NCBI RefSeq assembly: GCF_003334405.1
Contig: NZ_QOWM01000001.1
Strand: one strand, 5' to 3'
From: Escherichia coli
Lineage (GTDB): Bacteria > Pseudomonadota > Gammaproteobacteria > Enterobacterales > Enterobacteriaceae
Length of the DNA stretch: 64,000 bases
How positions within the stretch are numbered: position 1 is the stretch's first letter; each line of letters opens with the position of its first letter. The notes beneath the pieces are model-generated. The model ran no database searches. It saw only the letters and a program-made list of their open reading frames with translations, and had not been told where the DNA came from. The position numbers and the translations under genes were made by a program. This document shows, piece by piece, positions 20,214 through 23,924 of this stretch.

Positions 20214-22067
20214 ATGAGACGATTTCTGACGACGCTGATGATACTCCTGGTCGTGCTGGTGGCCGGGTTATCTGCGTTAGTGTTGCTGGTGAATCCGAAT
20301 GATTTCCGCGACTATATGGTCAAGCAAGTTGCTGCACGTAGCGGTTATCAATTGCAGCTCGACGGGCCACTGCGTTGGCACGTCTGGCCGCAGCTTAGTA
20401 TCCTCTCCGGGCGAATGTCTCTCACCGCCCAGGGCGCAAGCCAGCCACTGGTTCGCGCCGACAACATGCGTCTGGACGTGGCGCTTTTACCACTACTGAG
20501 TCATCAACTGAGCGTTAAGCAGGTGATGCTAAAAGGGGCAGTGATCCAACTGACGCCGCAGACGGAAGCGGTGCGCAGTGAAGACGCTCCGGTTGCACCG
20601 CGCGACAATACCTTGCCGGATCTGTCAGACGATCGCGGATGGTCGTTTGATATATCCAGTCTTAAGGTGGCGGACAGCGTGCTGGTGTTCCAGCATGAAG
20701 ATGACGAGCAGGTGACAATCCGCAATATCCGCCTGCAAATGGAACAAGATCCCCAACATCGTGGCTCATTTGAGTTCTCCGGGCGGGTTAATCGCGATCA
20801 GCGCGATCTCACAATATCCCTTAACGGTACGGTAGATGCTTCTGATTATCCGCATGATTTAACGGCGGCTATTGAACAAATTAACTGGCAGTTGCAGGGT
20901 GCCGATTTACCAAAACAAGGTATTCAGGGGCAGGGGAGTTTCCAGGCCCAGTGGCAGGAGTCACATAAACGCCTTTCATTTAACCAAATCAGCTTGACCG
21001 CCAATGACAGTACGCTGAGCGGGCAAGCACAGGTCACGCTGACAGAGAAACCGGAATGGCAGCTGAGACTGCAATTCCCGCAACTGAATCTTGACAACCT
21101 CATCCCGCTTAATGAAACCGCGAATGGTGAAAACGGTGCCGCGCAGCAGGGGCAGAGCCAATCAACGTTGCCGCGCCCGGTCATTTCTTCGCGTATTGAT
21201 GAACCGGCCTATCAGGGACTGCAAGGCTTTACGGCTGATATTTTGTTGCAGGCCAGTAACGTGCGCTGGCGCGGAATGAATTTTACAGATGTTGCCACGC
21301 AAATGACCAACAAGTCGGGTTTGCTGGAAATTACTCAACTGCAGGGCAAACTTAACGGTGGACAGGTTTCACTGCCGGGCACGCTGGACGCGACATCAAT
21401 AAATCCGCGGATAAACTTCCAGCCACGGCTGGAAAACGTTGAGATTGGTACCATTCTGAAGGCGTTTAACTATCCGATTTCGTTGACCGGAAAAATGTCA
21501 CTGGCTGGTGATTTCTCCGGTGCTGACATAGATGCCGACGCATTCCGCCACAACTGGCAAGGACAGGCACATGTCGAAATGACCGACACGCGCATGGAAG
21601 GGATGAACTTCCAGCAGATGATTCAGCAAGCGGTAGAGCGTAATGGCGGTGATGTGAAGGCCGCTGAAAACTTTGATAACGTGACGCGGCTTGACCGCTT
21701 TACCACCGATTTGACGTTGAAGGATGGCGTCGTGACGTTAAACGACATGCAAGGTCAATCGCCTGTGCTGGCGCTGACAGGGGAAGGCATGTTGAATCTG
21801 GCAGATCAAACCTGCGACACCCAGTTTGATATTCGGGTCGTGGGTGGCTGGAACGGGGAAAGCAAACTGATTGATTTCCTCAAAGAAACGCCAGTACCGC
21901 TGCGGGTTTATGGCAACTGGCAGCAACTCAATTACAGTCTGCAAGTGGATCAGTTACTGCGCAAACATCTACAGGACGAAGCGAAACGTCGCCTGAATGA
22001 CTGGGCCGAGCGGAATAAAGATTCCCGCAATGGCAAAGATGTGAAGAAGTTGCTGGAGAAGATGTAG
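20214..22067 (+). CDS. asmA: AsmA family outer-membrane assembly protein
   Basis: 617-aa ORF with N-terminal signal anchor (MRRFLTTLMILLVVLVAGLSALVLL); follows udk-dcd as in K-12. Confidence 0.9.
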   Translation: MRRFLTTLMILLVVLVAGLSALVLLVNPNDFRDYMVKQVAARSGYQLQLDGPLRWHVWPQLSILSGRMSLTAQGASQPLVRADNMRLDVALLPLLSHQLSVKQVMLKGAVIQLTPQTEAVRSEDAPVAPRDNTLPDLSDDRGWSFDISSLKVADSVLVFQHEDDEQVTIRNIRLQMEQDPQHRGSFEFSGRVNRDQRDLTISLNGTVDASDYPHDLTAAIEQINWQLQGADLPKQGIQGQGSFQAQWQESHKRLSFNQISLTANDSTLSGQAQVTLTEKPEWQLRLQFPQLNLDNLIPLNETANGENGAAQQGQSQSTLPRPVISSRIDEPAYQGLQGFTADILLQASNVRWRGMNFTDVATQMTNKSGLLEITQLQGKLNGGQVSLPGTLDATSINPRINFQPRLENVEIGTILKAFNYPISLTGKMSLAGDFSGADIDADAFRHNWQGQAHVEMTDTRMEGMNFQQMIQQAVERNGGDVKAAENFDNVTRLDRFTTDLTLKDGVVTLNDMQGQSPVLALTGEGMLNLADQTCDTQFDIRVVGGWNGESKLIDFLKETPVPLRVYGNWQQLNYSLQVDQLLRKHLQDEAKRRLNDWAERNKDSRNGKDVKKLLEKM

Positions 22068-22091
22068 GTTACCAGGTGACCTGTCCTGTAG

Positions 22092-22124
22092 GCCTGATAA
22101 GACGCGTAAAGCGTCGCATCAGGC
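22092..22124. repeat. REP palindromic element downstream of asmA
   Basis: GCCTGATAAGACGCG..GCGTCGCATCAGGC inverted repeat. Confidence 0.65.
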
Positions 22125-22224
22125 GTTCGCGGCGGCACCATTATATTCTGAATATGTAAGATCGAAGGCTGTTCCGTTCACTTGATGTTCCTCACTACTA
22201 TGGAACGCTCAAGCCGGTGAACGT

Positions 22225-22255
22225 GCCAGGGTGGCTCAATCGCCACCACCCTGGC
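22225..22255. other. Strong 10-bp stem-loop in the asmA-yegH convergent intergenic region
   Basis: GCCAGGGTGG, 11-nt loop, CCACCCTGGC; perfect 10-bp GC-rich stem. Confidence 0.5.
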
Positions 22256-22340
22256 AACCCGGGCTCCCGGCGGTAAATCGCCGCTGGCGCGGTTCCCTCA
22301 TCTTATTCCTTTCGGCTATCGGGTAAAATGACCGATACCA

Positions 22341-23924
22341 TCACACCTCGTACTTCAACTCGCCATCCTTATGCAGCGGAATAATCTGCACCTTCTGCAC
22401 GCGATGGCTTTCCACCTGCAACGTTTTAAGCAAATAATCCCCCACCTGAACTTCTTCGCCAGGTTTTGGAATACGCTGTAAATATTCCATCAACAGCCCG
22501 GCAATGGTGTGATATTCACGTTTTTCATCCAGCGGCAGCGGCACATATTGCACCAGATCTTCCAGCGGCATATGACCATTCGCCGTCCAGGAACCGTCCG
22601 CATTCTTCTGAATATCATGGCGGGCGTCGATCTCTTCCACTTCGTTCGGTAAGTTACCGGCAATGGTTTCAGTGACGTCACTTAATGTCACAATCCCTTC
22701 CACCGAGCCAAACTCATCCACCACAAAAGCAAAGTGTGTGCGGGCATTACGGAACTGCTCCAGGGCAGGTAACAACGGCAAGGTTTCCGGGAACACCAGC
22801 GGCTGGCGAATCAACACCCGCAGGTTGAGCGGTTCGCCGCGCAGTGACTGTTGTAGCAGGTCGATAACGTGAACAACACCGAGCAAATCTTCTGCGTCAT
22901 CACCGTCGGTAACCACCAGCCGCGTATGCTGATTTCGCTCCAGCAACTGGCGGATTTCTTCTTCCGGCGCGTTGAGATCGATATGCTCAATATCGTGGCG
23001 CGACGTCATAATGCTGCTGACAGTACGCTGGTTAAGATTAAGTACCCGCTCAATCATCCGCCGTTCCTGCGGATTAAAGATCTGCTGGTTACCATGATCG
23101 ACCAGCATGGACGCGGTTTCGGCGTCCAGTTCCGCATCTTCTTTTTGCCCGCTAAGCAGGCGCATTACCGCTTCGGTAGTCCGCTGGCGTAGCGTCTGGT
23201 TAGCGGAAAGAAAACGTCGCCGGTTAAAGATAGCCAACTGATTGAGCGCCTCGATCATCACCGAGAAACCAATGGCAGCGTACAGGTAGCCTTTCGGAAT
23301 GACGAAGCCGAAACCTTCTGCCACCAGGCTAAAGCCAATCATCAACAGGAAGCTTAAGCAGAGAATAACGATGGTCGGGTGGCTATTAACGAACTGGGTT
23401 AACGGCTTGCTGGCCATCAACATCAGGCTGATAGCGATAACCACGGCGGCCATCATGACCAGTAAATGGTCGACCATCCCGACGGCGGTAATCACTGAGT
23501 CGAGTGAGAAAATGGCGTCCAGCACCACAATTTGCGTCACCACGCCCCAGAACTTCGCACCTTTGCGTTGTGTGGGATTATTGCTGTCTTTCCCTTCCAG
23601 CCGTTCGTTCAGCTCCATCGTGGCTTTGAACAACAGGAAGAAACCACCAAACAGCATGATTAAGTCGCGGGCGCTAAAGGTAAACGAGCGGAAGCTGAAC
23701 AGCGGTTGAGTCAGGGTGACCAGCCAGGAGATTGACGCCAGCAGTAACAGGCGCATTAACATCGCCAGCAGCAGCCCGGTAACCCGTGCGCGGTCGCGCT
23801 GCTTCGGCGGTAGTTTTTCGGCGAGGATGGCAATAAAGACCAGGTTATCAATGCCGAGGACCAGTTCGATCACAATCAGCGTGATTAACCCGGCCCAGAT
23901 AGACGGATCGGCAATCCATTCCAT
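22341..23924 (-). CDS. yegH: TerC-family integral membrane protein with CBS and CorC/HlyC C-terminal domains
   Basis: ORF track 549 aa; trimmed to ATG (complement 23922-23924), [34 protein letters not shown] (TerC-like), giving 527 aa as recalled for YegH. Confidence 0.85.

What the first reader, a model, noticed from the sequence alone, without database searches (positions are those of the whole stretch)
22140..22340. Structured non-coding element in the asmA-yegH convergent intergenic region
Beyond the REP element at 22092-22124 there is a further ~200 bp of non-coding sequence containing a perfect 10-bp GC-rich stem-loop (GCCAGGGTGG...CCACCCTGGC, 22225-22255) and a second short palindrome (CCCGGGCTCCCGGCGG). 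It lies at the 3' ends of both flanking genes, so it could be a bidirectional terminator or a 3'-UTR-derived small RNA.
Basis: seen in the sequence. Interest (0 to 1): 0.3.

Follow-up and report, generated by a model that had tools for sequence, protein, structure and literature searches.

The report
Relic repeat hairpin ending two transcripts
The 200 bp between asmA and yegH is the broken remainder of a dispersed, highly structured enterobacterial repeat, and in E. coli K-12 its surviving GC-rich hairpin is where the transcripts coming from both genes end.

Summary
Window 22224-22256 holds a perfect 11-bp GC-rich hairpin in a 273-bp convergent asmA/yegH spacer, next to a REP.

The segment 22150-22325 is not a private element. 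It is the 3' ~60% (minus strand is the folding strand) of a ~280-nt repeat found in intergenic regions of Escherichia, Citrobacter, Klebsiella, Kluyvera and Enterobacter.

Full-length copies carry two hairpins with ACAUGGAUGU / UACAGGGAUGU loops inside a long closing stem. This is the TwoAYGGAY architecture, but they score only ~31 bits against Rfam's threshold of 43. The window copy lost that core through an exact 178-bp deletion between ATCGGGTA direct repeats and diverges at about the synonymous-site rate, on few sites.

Published K-12 Term-seq places dominant RNA 3' ends 5 and 6 nt past the hairpin on both strands, with a Rho termination region just downstream. There is no U-tract. Nothing I found points to a small RNA. 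The remnant is modestly interesting; the unannotated family, with two intact K-12 copies, is more so.

The parts
20214..22067 (+). asmA coding sequence (last gene of the udk-dcd-asmA run); context only
   Evidence: ORF list; RefSeq annotation of the identical region in strain E2865
22092..22124 (.). REP element (14-bp imperfect palindrome)
   Evidence: Inverted repeat I1; sub-threshold Rfam naRNA4/REP hit, 33 bits; -22 kcal/mol
22150..22325 (-). Truncated copy (3' ~60%, model positions ~105-279) of the ~280-nt enterobacterial structured repeat. The folding (RNA-sense) strand is the minus strand, the same direction as yegH.
   Evidence: Covariance model R1 hits the window once: 103.4 bits, E 5.5e-33, with only the 3' part truly aligned. 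BLAST to full-length alleles L004/L006 covers 22129-22325. G-U exceeds A-C mismatches 106 to 22 on this strand.
22175..22223 (-). Helix 13 of the family (CGUUCAC/GUGAACG stem with a variable loop)
   Evidence: Inverted repeat I4. 3 of 7 pairs have compensatory changes and 98.5% of cells pair in 67 copies.
22224..22256 (.). Perfect 11-bp GC-rich stem; the loop GGCGAUUGAG (RNA sense) is nearly invariant in the family.
   Evidence: 8 of 11 pairs have compensatory changes. Term-seq 3' ends flank it on both strands in K-12.
22257..22292 (-). Orphaned 3' strands of the closing stems P0 (CGCCGG, + strand 22267-22272) and P1 (CGAUUU, + strand 22275-22280), plus the small hairpin helix 11 (22281-22292).
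   Evidence: Alignment to the model; family structure. Their 5' partners lie in the deleted segment.
22293..22317 (-). Junction strand of the family core, with the conserved AAGGAAUAAG (+ strand 22302-22311)
   Evidence: Nearly invariant columns in A6; model alignment
22318..22325 (.). Deletion scar: the single surviving copy of the 8-bp direct repeat ATCGGGTA. 178 bp, holding both GGA-loop hairpins and the 5' strands of P0/P1, are missing relative to full-length alleles.
   Evidence: In L006 the repeat lies at 1751 and 1929, 178 bp apart; alignment A2
22260..22260 (+). Position equivalent to the dominant RNA 3' end of asmA-direction transcripts in K-12 (MG1655 2139566, minus strand)
   Evidence: Adams et al. 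2021 Suppl. file 1, score 42363 (LB OD 0.4) and 31838 in a second of the three conditions; coordinate and sequence verified against NC_000913.3
22219..22219 (-). Position equivalent to the RNA 3' end of yegH-direction transcripts in K-12 (MG1655 2139607, plus strand)
   Evidence: Adams et al. 2021 Suppl. file 1, three entries with scores 2740, 2875 and 4207; verified
22350..22350 (+). Position equivalent to the peak of a Rho termination region for asmA-direction transcription in K-12 (MG1655 2139476, minus strand)
   Evidence: Adams et al. 2021 Suppl. file 2, Rho score 7.7, p 1.1e-18. The method uses 800-nt windows, so resolution is coarse.
22341..23924 (-). yegH (TerC-family membrane protein); context only
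   Evidence: RefSeq annotation of the identical region; ORF list

Best explanation
The ~200 bp beyond the REP is the surviving 3' portion of one copy of a ~280-nt structured repeat dispersed in intergenic regions of Enterobacteriaceae. Intact copies fold, on the strand that is minus in this window, into a long closing stem around two hairpins whose loops read ACAUGGAUGU and UACAGGGAUGU. Two further hairpins follow on the 3' side. In this window, as in roughly 45% of E. coli genomes including K-12, an exact 178-bp deletion between two ATCGGGTA direct repeats removed the two loop hairpins and the 5' halves of the closing stems. The copy is therefore a relic of whatever the intact element does. 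What survives is a very stable 11-bp GC hairpin between two convergent genes. In K-12 the dominant RNA 3' ends of both the asmA-direction and the yegH-direction transcripts lie 5-6 nt downstream of it. The mechanism I consider most likely is an inference: there is no U-tract, so transcription from asmA runs past the hairpin, is stopped by Rho near the end of yegH, and 3'-to-5' exonucleases trim the RNA back to the hairpin, which then protects the mRNA end. On the yegH strand the same hairpin marks a weaker 3' end, produced either in the same way or by polymerase stalling at the hairpin.

Shown: identity as a truncated family copy; the covarying structure; the deletion boundaries; the K-12 3' ends; the K-12 Rho region.

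Inferred: that the window strain behaves like K-12; the trimming mechanism; that the relic has no role beyond forming 3' ends.
For: Family membership: the same-locus full-length alleles (L004, L006) and paralogous copies at aqpZ-lysO, proX-MFS and dusC-yohP align to the segment. About 120 loci were recovered from Citrobacter, Klebsiella, Kluyvera, Enterobacter and others. Model R1 hits the window at 103 bits, E 5.5e-33, on the minus strand, with only the 3' part aligned.

Structure: 64 pairs are 94.6% paired against 37-42% in slid controls. G-U outnumber A-C mismatches 106 to 22, which fixes the folding strand.

Relic status: the deletion is exactly 178 bp between 8-bp direct repeats. An independent internal deletion exists in L005. 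Divergence from K-12 in the spacer is 7/273, comparable to third-position divergence in asmA (12/618) and yegH (19/528). K-12 carries a substitution in the otherwise near-invariant loop. The locus also has REP-only and toxin-antitoxin alleles.

3' ends: Term-seq ends at MG1655 2139566(-) and 2139607(+) correspond to window 22260(+) and 22219(-). A Rho region peaks at 2139476(-). No intrinsic-terminator-like site was found. Hairpin stability is -22 and -24.4 kcal/mol.
Against: The expression data are from K-12, not the window strain. The stem is identical, the loop differs by one base, and the spacer is 97.4% identical.

The Rho score is computed on 800-nt windows, so the actual termination point is not resolved. 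Termination at the hairpin itself is therefore not excluded.

On the yegH strand, an exonuclease coming from further downstream would meet the REP (-21.6 kcal/mol) and helix 13 (-18.2 kcal/mol) before this hairpin. Simple trimming explains that 3' end less well.

Neutral divergence rests on only 7 substitutions. The truncated allele is the commonest in E. coli, so some benefit is possible.
Confidence: 0.72

Rival explanations
1. The hairpin is a true bidirectional intrinsic (factor-independent) terminator for the convergent asmA and yegH transcription units.
For: RNA 3' ends lie 5-6 nt past the stem on both strands in K-12. The stem is very stable and GC-rich, and the genes are convergent. From general knowledge, SEnd-seq work (Ju et al. 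2019) reported many bidirectional terminators between convergent E. coli genes, and head-on polymerase conflict can aid termination there.
Against: No U-tract follows the stem on either strand (AACCC and ACGUUC) and no A-tract precedes it. The terminator scan finds nothing. A Rho termination region with 7.7-fold bicyclomycin read-through sits immediately downstream in the asmA direction. In relatives the hairpin is an internal helix of a larger fold and occurs in either orientation relative to neighbouring genes.
Confidence: 0.15
2. The segment encodes a stable small RNA, for example one derived from the yegH 3' UTR, that acts in trans.
For: A defined 3' end exists on the yegH strand under all three growth conditions. 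The region is strongly structured, with z = -3.2 on the minus strand. The parent family is RNA-like.
Against: There is no U-tail for Hfq binding, no promoter-like site in the spacer and no Rfam hit apart from the REP. Full-text literature searches for yegH together with sRNA or terminator found nothing relevant. The copy lacks the conserved core of its own family. The segment is absent or replaced in roughly a quarter of E. coli genomes and diverges at about the neutral rate.
Confidence: 0.06
3. The retained 3' domain (helices 11-13) is an autonomous functional module of the repeat family, such as a protein-binding or DNA-level recognition site, and is kept by selection even without the core.
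For: The helix 12 loop GGCGAUUG is almost invariant across genera. The truncated allele is the most frequent in E. coli, at roughly 45%. Both helices are intact in the window.
Against: K-12 has mutated the invariant loop (GGCGA to GGAGA). Other alleles delete helix 12 partly (L005) or lack the whole element. Divergence is about equal to synonymous divergence. No stand-alone 3'-domain copies were seen as a recurrent class among the 150 model hits.
Confidence: 0.07

Closest known systems
TwoAYGGAY RNA motif (Rfam RF01731; Weinberg et al. 2010, PMC2864571)
   Same: Full-length relatives of the window element share the architecture. A long, A/U-ended closing stem encloses two adjacent hairpins whose loops read A-N-GGA-Y: ACAUGGAUGU and UACAGGGAYGU. 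These are nearly identical to the Psychromonas seed sequences. They are also multi-copy in intergenic DNA. Gardner & Eldai 2015 (PMC4333381) proposed that the motif binds CsrA. From my own knowledge, the loops here match the CsrA SELEX consensus RUACARGGAUGU.
   Different: The E. coli copies score 31.5 and 30.6 bits against a gathering threshold of 43, and a Klebsiella copy gives no hit. In the stored part of the published alignment, the four Enterobacteriaceae genome accessions I searched for were absent, while Psychromonas was present. The enterobacterial family has an extra ~120-nt 3' domain of two hairpins and often occurs as head-to-head dimers. The window copy lacks both GGA hairpins and half of the closing stem.
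REP/BIME elements acting as 3'-end stabilisers
   Same: Both are stable extragenic palindromes at the 3' ends of genes that define and protect mRNA 3' ends without a U-tract (general knowledge). A real REP lies 100 bp away in the same spacer. REP-REP recombination appears to have inverted or deleted the element at this locus.
   Different: The hairpin has no REP consensus and belongs to a 280-nt multi-helix fold with long-range covarying pairs. Copy number is about 3 places per E. coli genome, not hundreds.
Rho-dependent terminators whose 3' ends are trimmed back to a stem-loop (Dar & Sorek 2018, general knowledge; Adams et al. 2021)
   Same: There is a Rho termination region within 100 nt downstream and a dominant 3' end a few nt past a stable hairpin lacking a U-tract. 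A C/U-rich, G-poor stretch (TTCCCTCATCTTATTCCTTTC, 22294-22314) follows the hairpin on the asmA strand.
   Different: Trimming has not been shown for this site. On the yegH strand no Rho region is reported, and two other hairpins lie downstream.
RSA / 'BEE95' dispersed enterobacterial intergenic elements (Bachellier & Hofnung 1996, seen only as a citation)
   Same: They are described as dispersed enterobacterial intergenic repeats. From memory they are about 152 bp with a few copies in K-12, which is close to the ~155-nt stem-enclosed core of this family.
   Different: No RSA sequence or coordinates could be retrieved, so identity is an untested lead.
CsrB/CsrC-type CsrA-sequestering sRNAs
   Same: GGA motifs are presented in hairpin loops (full-length relatives only).
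   Different: There are only two, possibly three, sites rather than 9-22. No promoter, terminator or Term-seq 3' end was detected at the intact K-12 copies. The window copy has lost the sites.

Membership tests
TwoAYGGAY RNA motif (RF01731) | Two adjacent hairpins with AYGGAY in the terminal loops | tested here: not met
   The window copy lacks both hairpins, which lie in the 178-bp deletion. Full-length relatives have them: loops AUGGAU, AGGGAU and ACGGAC, and the stems covary.
TwoAYGGAY RNA motif (RF01731) | Closing P1 stem around the two hairpins | tested here: not met
   Only the 3' strands survive in the window (22267-22280). In relatives P1 is 99% paired, with 3 of its 6 pairs covarying.
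TwoAYGGAY RNA motif (RF01731) | Score at or above the Rfam gathering threshold (43 bits) | tested here: not met
   The window gives no hit. Full-length E. coli copies score 31.5 and 30.6 bits (E 0.004-0.006 in 400-nt searches) and a Klebsiella copy gives none.
Enterobacterial ~280-nt structured repeat (defined here, model R1) | Significant match to the covariance model with helices 11-13 in order | tested here: met
   103.4 bits, E 5.5e-33, minus strand. Helices 11, 12 and 13 are intact, and model positions 1 to ~105 have no true counterpart.
Intrinsic (Rho-independent) terminator, bidirectional | GC-rich hairpin | tested here: met
   11-bp perfect stem, -22 and -24.4 kcal/mol
Intrinsic (Rho-independent) terminator, bidirectional | U-tract immediately 3' of the stem on each strand | tested here: not met
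   AACCCGGG on the + strand and ACGUUCAC on the - strand; the scan finds 0 terminator-like sites.
Intrinsic (Rho-independent) terminator, bidirectional | RNA 3' ends mapped just downstream of the stem | tested here: met
   Published K-12 Term-seq gives 3' ends 5 nt (+) and 6 nt (-) past the stem. This was taken from the literature, not measured here, and not for the window strain.
Intrinsic (Rho-independent) terminator, bidirectional | Termination independent of Rho | tested here: inconclusive
   A Rho termination region is reported at MG1655 2139476(-), about 90 nt downstream, but with 800-nt window resolution. There are no data for the other strand.
3'-UTR-derived Hfq-dependent sRNA | Discrete stable transcript with its own 5' end, a terminator hairpin plus U-tail, and a conserved seed | tested here: not met
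   There is no U-tail and no promoter-like site. The segment is absent or replaced in many strains. 5'-end data could not be retrieved.
MITE (miniature inverted-repeat transposable element) | Terminal inverted repeats and target-site duplication at filled versus empty sites | tested here: not met
   Filled versus empty alleles at asmA-yegH, proX-MFS and dusC-yohP show no TSD or TIR. Whole spacers are swapped or inverted instead. There are no matches in phages.
REP/BIME | REP consensus palindrome | tested here: not met
   Only 22092-22124 is REP-like. The 200-bp segment gives no REP/naRNA4 alignment beyond 22163.
RSA / BEE95 repeats | Match to the published RSA consensus and K-12 positions | not testable with these tools
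   Only a citation was found; no sequence was available.

The most novel reading that the evidence does not exclude
The window remnant points to an unannotated family: ~280-nt, strongly covarying, RNA-like elements of Enterobacteriaceae. It is a distant relative of the orphan TwoAYGGAY motif, with two hairpins that match the CsrA high-affinity consensus plus an extra 3' domain. Copies are often arranged as strict head-to-head dimers, and they flip orientation at orthologous loci. Two intact copies sit in E. coli K-12, at 915023-915302(+) and 2229101-2229380(-). If these are transcribed and bind CsrA, or if the dimer is a new kind of foldback mobile element, the function of TwoAYGGAY-type RNAs would become directly testable in K-12.
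Probability: 0.3. Interest if true: 0.65.

Novelty: new variant of a known kind. Interest (0 to 1): 0.4.

Why it matters
For this locus the result is mostly explanatory. It shows why a long, oddly structured spacer sits between asmA and yegH: it is the decayed half of a repeat. It also ties a published but unexplained pair of 'orphan' Term-seq 3' ends in K-12 to one inherited hairpin, giving a clean example of repeat debris taken over as a 3'-end-forming element for two convergent genes.

The wider value lies in the parent family. It is not annotated at any copy I inspected in RefSeq, nothing in Rfam 15 reaches its threshold on it, and I found no description of it in the searchable literature. 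Its covariation is as strong as that of accepted RNA families. It carries two consensus CsrA-type hairpins and has intact copies in K-12. That would let the 2010 TwoAYGGAY motif and the 2015 CsrA-sponge hypothesis be tested in the easiest organism available.

The locus also documents REP-flanked inversion, deletion and cassette swapping (repeat, toxin-antitoxin pair or nothing) in a single spacer.

Tried and rejected
- **Rfam on the window spacer:** only sub-threshold REP/naRNA4 hits. A pooled search of six loci returned nothing because of the larger search space.
- **Promoter and terminator scans:** nothing at the spacer, at the two intact K-12 copies or in a Citrobacter dimer spacer.
- **Phage collection:** no match. 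The 'plasmid' hits are mostly mislabelled chromosomes.
- **MITE reading:** no TIR or TSD at three polymorphic loci.
- **Decayed toxin gene:** I considered that the 200 bp might be the lost N-terminus of the RelE/ParE toxin seen in strain CU39ES-1. I rejected this because homology to the complete cassette (L139) stops exactly where the repeat begins, and the repeat has paralogues elsewhere.
- **Literature:** nothing useful for yegH/asmA with terminator or sRNA, or for CsrA CLIP with aqpZ. RSA/BEE95 sequences could not be retrieved. The id I tried from memory for the Thomason et al. TSS paper (PMC4288677) is not held.
- **Term-seq at the intact K-12 copies:** no curated 3' ends.
- **Junction-specific BLAST counts:** searches were confounded because separate pieces were joined, so the allele frequencies come and are approximate.

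Full report
**1. What is there**

The window is E. coli. asmA (+, 20214-22067) and yegH (-, stop codon at 22341-22343) converge on a 273-bp spacer. The spacer starts with a REP at 22092-22124. Its arms are 22224-22234 and 22246-22256: 11 bp, perfectly complementary, with an 11-nt loop. The exact pattern occurs once in the 64-kb window and never in 100 shuffles. It folds at -22.0 kcal/mol on the + strand and -24.4 on the - strand.

The 'second palindrome' is a weak, overlapping 82% palindrome. RefSeq annotates nothing in the spacer in the strains I checked, including MG1655, where the spacer is 2139486-2139758.

**2. The segment is a copy of a dispersed repeat**

The spacer is polymorphic in E. 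coli. 5212 of 5426 complete genomes match it, but only 3819 cover at least 80% of it. The alleles seen are:
- REP only, a 67-bp spacer (UPEC-774U, Nissle 1917).
- The window type.
- A longer type with 178 extra bp (E1316, L006).
- A hybrid with an HTH antitoxin and a truncated RelE/ParE toxin (CU39ES-1, ABU 83972).
- A type in which a complete, though frameshifted, toxin-antitoxin pair fills the spacer (GF43).

Searching with the long allele showed paralogous copies at about 83-86% identity in essentially every E. coli genome, with a median of 3 places and up to 10. They lie between aqpZ and lysO, proX and an MFS gene, and dusC and yohP. Copies were also found in Klebsiella (12 places in one chromosome) and Citrobacter.

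Almost all are from Citrobacter, Escherichia, Enterobacter, Kluyvera, Klebsiella, Raoultella, Trabulsiella, Pseudocitrobacter and Leclercia.

**3.

I aligned 67 copies that are less than 93% identical to one another (A6). A 64-pair, 13-helix structure is 94.6% paired, against 37-42% when the 3' partners are slid by 1-3 columns. 31 pairs carry changes on both sides, and the covariation score is 0.337 against 0.03-0.08 for the slid versions.

Helix 13 is the CGTTCAC/GTGAACG stem. On the strand that is minus in the window, G-U pairs outnumber A-C mismatches 106 to 22. That strand is therefore the one that folds, as RNA or as single-stranded DNA.

**4. Closest known family**

On that strand the core of full-length copies is a long closing stem (AAAAUCG...CGAUUUU, extended by a second covarying stem). 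It encloses two adjacent hairpins with loops ACAUGGAUGU and UACAGGGAYGU.

Rfam's only non-trivial hit is TwoAYGGAY (RF01731), at 31.5 and 30.6 bits for two E. coli copies (E about 0.005 in 400-nt searches). The gathering threshold is 43 bits, and a Klebsiella copy gives no hit at all. The published TwoAYGGAY alignment contains multi-copy Psychromonas sequences with almost the same loops (AAACAUGGAUGUUU, GUACAGGGACGUA). In the stored part of that file, the four Enterobacteriaceae genome accessions I searched for (E. coli, Klebsiella, Citrobacter, Enterobacter) were absent.

Gardner & Eldai (PMC4333381) proposed that TwoAYGGAY RNAs sequester CsrA. From my own knowledge, the loops here fit the CsrA SELEX consensus RUACARGGAUGU.

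The enterobacterial family therefore has the TwoAYGGAY core architecture but fails the formal membership threshold. It also adds a ~120-nt 3' domain (helices 12 and 13). It may be identical to the old 'RSA/BEE95' repeats. I found those only as a citation, so the lead is untested.

**5. The window copy is a relic**

Model R1, built from A6, hits the window once, on the minus strand, at 103 bits and E 5.5e-33. Only model positions ~105-279 (window 22150-22325) have real counterparts.

Compared with the full-length allele at the same locus, exactly 178 bp are missing between two copies of ATCGGGTA (L006 positions 1751 and 1929), and one copy survives at 22318-22325. The lost piece held both GGA hairpins and the 5' strands of the closing stems. 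An independent internal deletion occurs in another strain (L005).

Between the window and a K-12-like strain the spacer differs at 7 of 273 positions. That is similar to third-codon-position divergence in asmA (12/618) and yegH (19/528). One of the K-12 changes hits the otherwise nearly invariant helix 12 loop.

Rough allele frequencies are:
- Full-length: about 1500 genomes.
- Truncated window type: about 2400 (minus the full-length count).
- All others: about 1500.

**6. How the locus got this way**

In Escherichia sp. E1V33, E. whittamii and a divergent 'E. coli' species representative, the asmA-yegH spacer holds a full-length copy (239-269 bits) in the opposite orientation. In E1V33, the one I read through, it lies between two inverted REPs.

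The right junction of the REP-only allele (...CATCAGGCCTACATGCCATCAC) is identical to the end of the second REP in that arrangement. REP-REP recombination can therefore explain both the inversion seen in E. coli and the clean loss seen in strains such as UPEC-774U and Nissle 1917.

The same kind of flip occurs at dusC-yohP between K-12 and an ST1193 strain, where the element is 88.6% identical and the flanks 98%. At proX the element is present in 544 genomes and replaced by REPs in K-12.

No terminal inverted repeats or target duplications were found, so the element does not behave like a classical MITE.

Across about 90 copies with two assignable neighbouring genes, the element avoids divergent spacers: 3 cases, against 36 convergent and 50 tandem. 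In tandem contexts it shows no orientation bias (23 against 27).

**7. What the hairpin does here**

The scan finds no intrinsic terminator. The stem is followed by AACCC on the + strand and ACGUUC on the - strand.

Published Term-seq for MG1655 (Adams et al. 2021, PMC7815308) nevertheless lists two 'orphan' dominant 3' ends:
- 2139566(-), with scores of 42363 and 31838 in two of the three conditions.
- 2139607(+), with scores of 2740-4207 in all three conditions.

I checked both against NC_000913.3. They correspond to window 22260(+) and 22219(-), which are 5 and 6 nt beyond the hairpin on the asmA and yegH strands respectively. The same study reports a Rho termination region peaking at 2139476(-), equivalent to window 22350(+), with a Rho score of 7.7 and p = 1e-18.

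A C/U-rich, G-poor stretch at 22294-22314 follows the hairpin on the asmA strand. This is the sort of sequence Rho loads on.

The best-supported reading is that asmA-direction transcripts pass the hairpin, are terminated by Rho near the end of yegH, and are trimmed back to the hairpin, which then caps the mRNA. This is an inference from a known pattern and was not shown for this site. On the yegH strand the weaker end may arise in the same way or by stalling at the hairpin. Simple trimming fits less well there, because the REP and helix 13 lie further downstream.

Nothing I could check supports a small RNA.

**8. The parent family remains unexplained**

K-12 has two intact copies, at 915023-915302(+) and 2229101-2229380(-). 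No σ70-like promoter or intrinsic terminator was detected there or in the dimer spacer, and Adams et al. list no curated 3' ends there.

Across 100 loci the model finds 150 copies. About 50 loci carry two copies, always head-to-head with their 5' ends facing across a spacer of roughly 45-200 nt. The basic unit may therefore be a ~640-bp foldback.

Whether this is a CsrA-binding RNA, a passively transcribed selfish repeat or a DNA-level element is open. The multi-branch covarying fold and the G-U bias favour folding of one strand. The random orientation and the lack of expression signals argue against a conventional sRNA gene.

**9. Verdict**

- **Observation:** confirmed.
- **Interpretation:** partly supported.
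- **The element in the window:** a decayed member of a TwoAYGGAY-like enterobacterial repeat whose leftover hairpin serves as a two-way 3'-end former. This is ordinary in mechanism and modest in interest.
- **The family behind it:** the more interesting lead.

Noticed in passing
L139 1253-1848 (E. coli GF43); L004 1052-1499 (CU39ES-1); the same spacer as window 22068-22340: Some E. coli strains carry a type II toxin-antitoxin pair (an HTH antitoxin plus a frameshifted or truncated RelE/ParE toxin) in the asmA-yegH spacer, either instead of or fused to the structured repeat. In the hybrid allele (116 genomes), homology to the complete cassette stops exactly where the repeat starts.
   Followed up: partly
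L100 225-700, L112 8478-8904, L035 8672-9004: Other Escherichia species have a full-length copy of the repeat at asmA-yegH in the opposite orientation; in L100, the one read through, it lies between two inverted REPs. The REP-only E. coli allele has the junction expected from REP-REP recombination.
   Followed up: partly
L138 1102-1381 (K-12) versus L009 2414-2694 (ST1193): The copy in the dusC-yohP spacer is inverted between two E. coli strains. It is only 88.6% identical while the flanks are 98% identical, so it was either replaced or imported rather than simply flipped recently.
   Followed up: partly
L042 602-1238, and about 50 other loci (L016-L115): In Citrobacter, Kluyvera, Pseudocitrobacter and Enterobacter the repeat usually occurs as a pair. 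The pair is always head-to-head, with the 5' ends facing across a spacer of about 45-200 nt, and one arm scores markedly lower than the other. No convergent or tandem pairs were seen.
   Followed up: partly
MG1655 915023-915302 (+) and 2229101-2229380 (-) (L137 3024-3303; L138 1102-1381): K-12 has two intact, unannotated copies of the repeat (274 and 278 bits), each with two hairpins matching the CsrA high-affinity consensus. No promoter-like or terminator-like site and no curated Term-seq 3' end were found at either.
   Followed up: partly
L008 2433-2712 versus L014/L015: In the proX-MFS spacer the repeat is present in 544 of 5426 E. coli genomes. It is replaced by one or two REPs in K-12 and most other strains, with no target duplication.
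   Followed up: yes
L057 and L059 upstream flanks; L055 about 1157-1458: Kluyvera copies are preceded by 2-3 tandem units of about 38 nt (TAGCTGAAAACTTACAGCGATATTGACGTTGGCTTT). One copy has a GGGGTGCA tandem expansion inserted just before helix 12.
   Followed up: no
L027 (Desulfacinum MAG), L105 (Chryseobacterium sp.), L108 (Bacillus sp., 583-bp contig): Good model hits (137-259 bits) to this enterobacterial repeat lie on contigs assigned to unrelated phyla. Contamination or mis-binning of those assemblies is the most likely cause.
   Followed up: no
CP125156.1 (L010) and other 'plasmids' hits: Several PLSDB 'plasmid' records that match the repeat are 0.5-5.4 Mb and carry chromosomal genes (iolC, torA, csdA). 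They are mislabelled chromosomes or chromosome fragments.
   Followed up: no
window 22317-22337: The 178-bp deletion created a new small hairpin, TATCGG/CCGATA, from one element-derived arm and one yegH-flank arm, immediately after the yegH stop codon.
   Followed up: no
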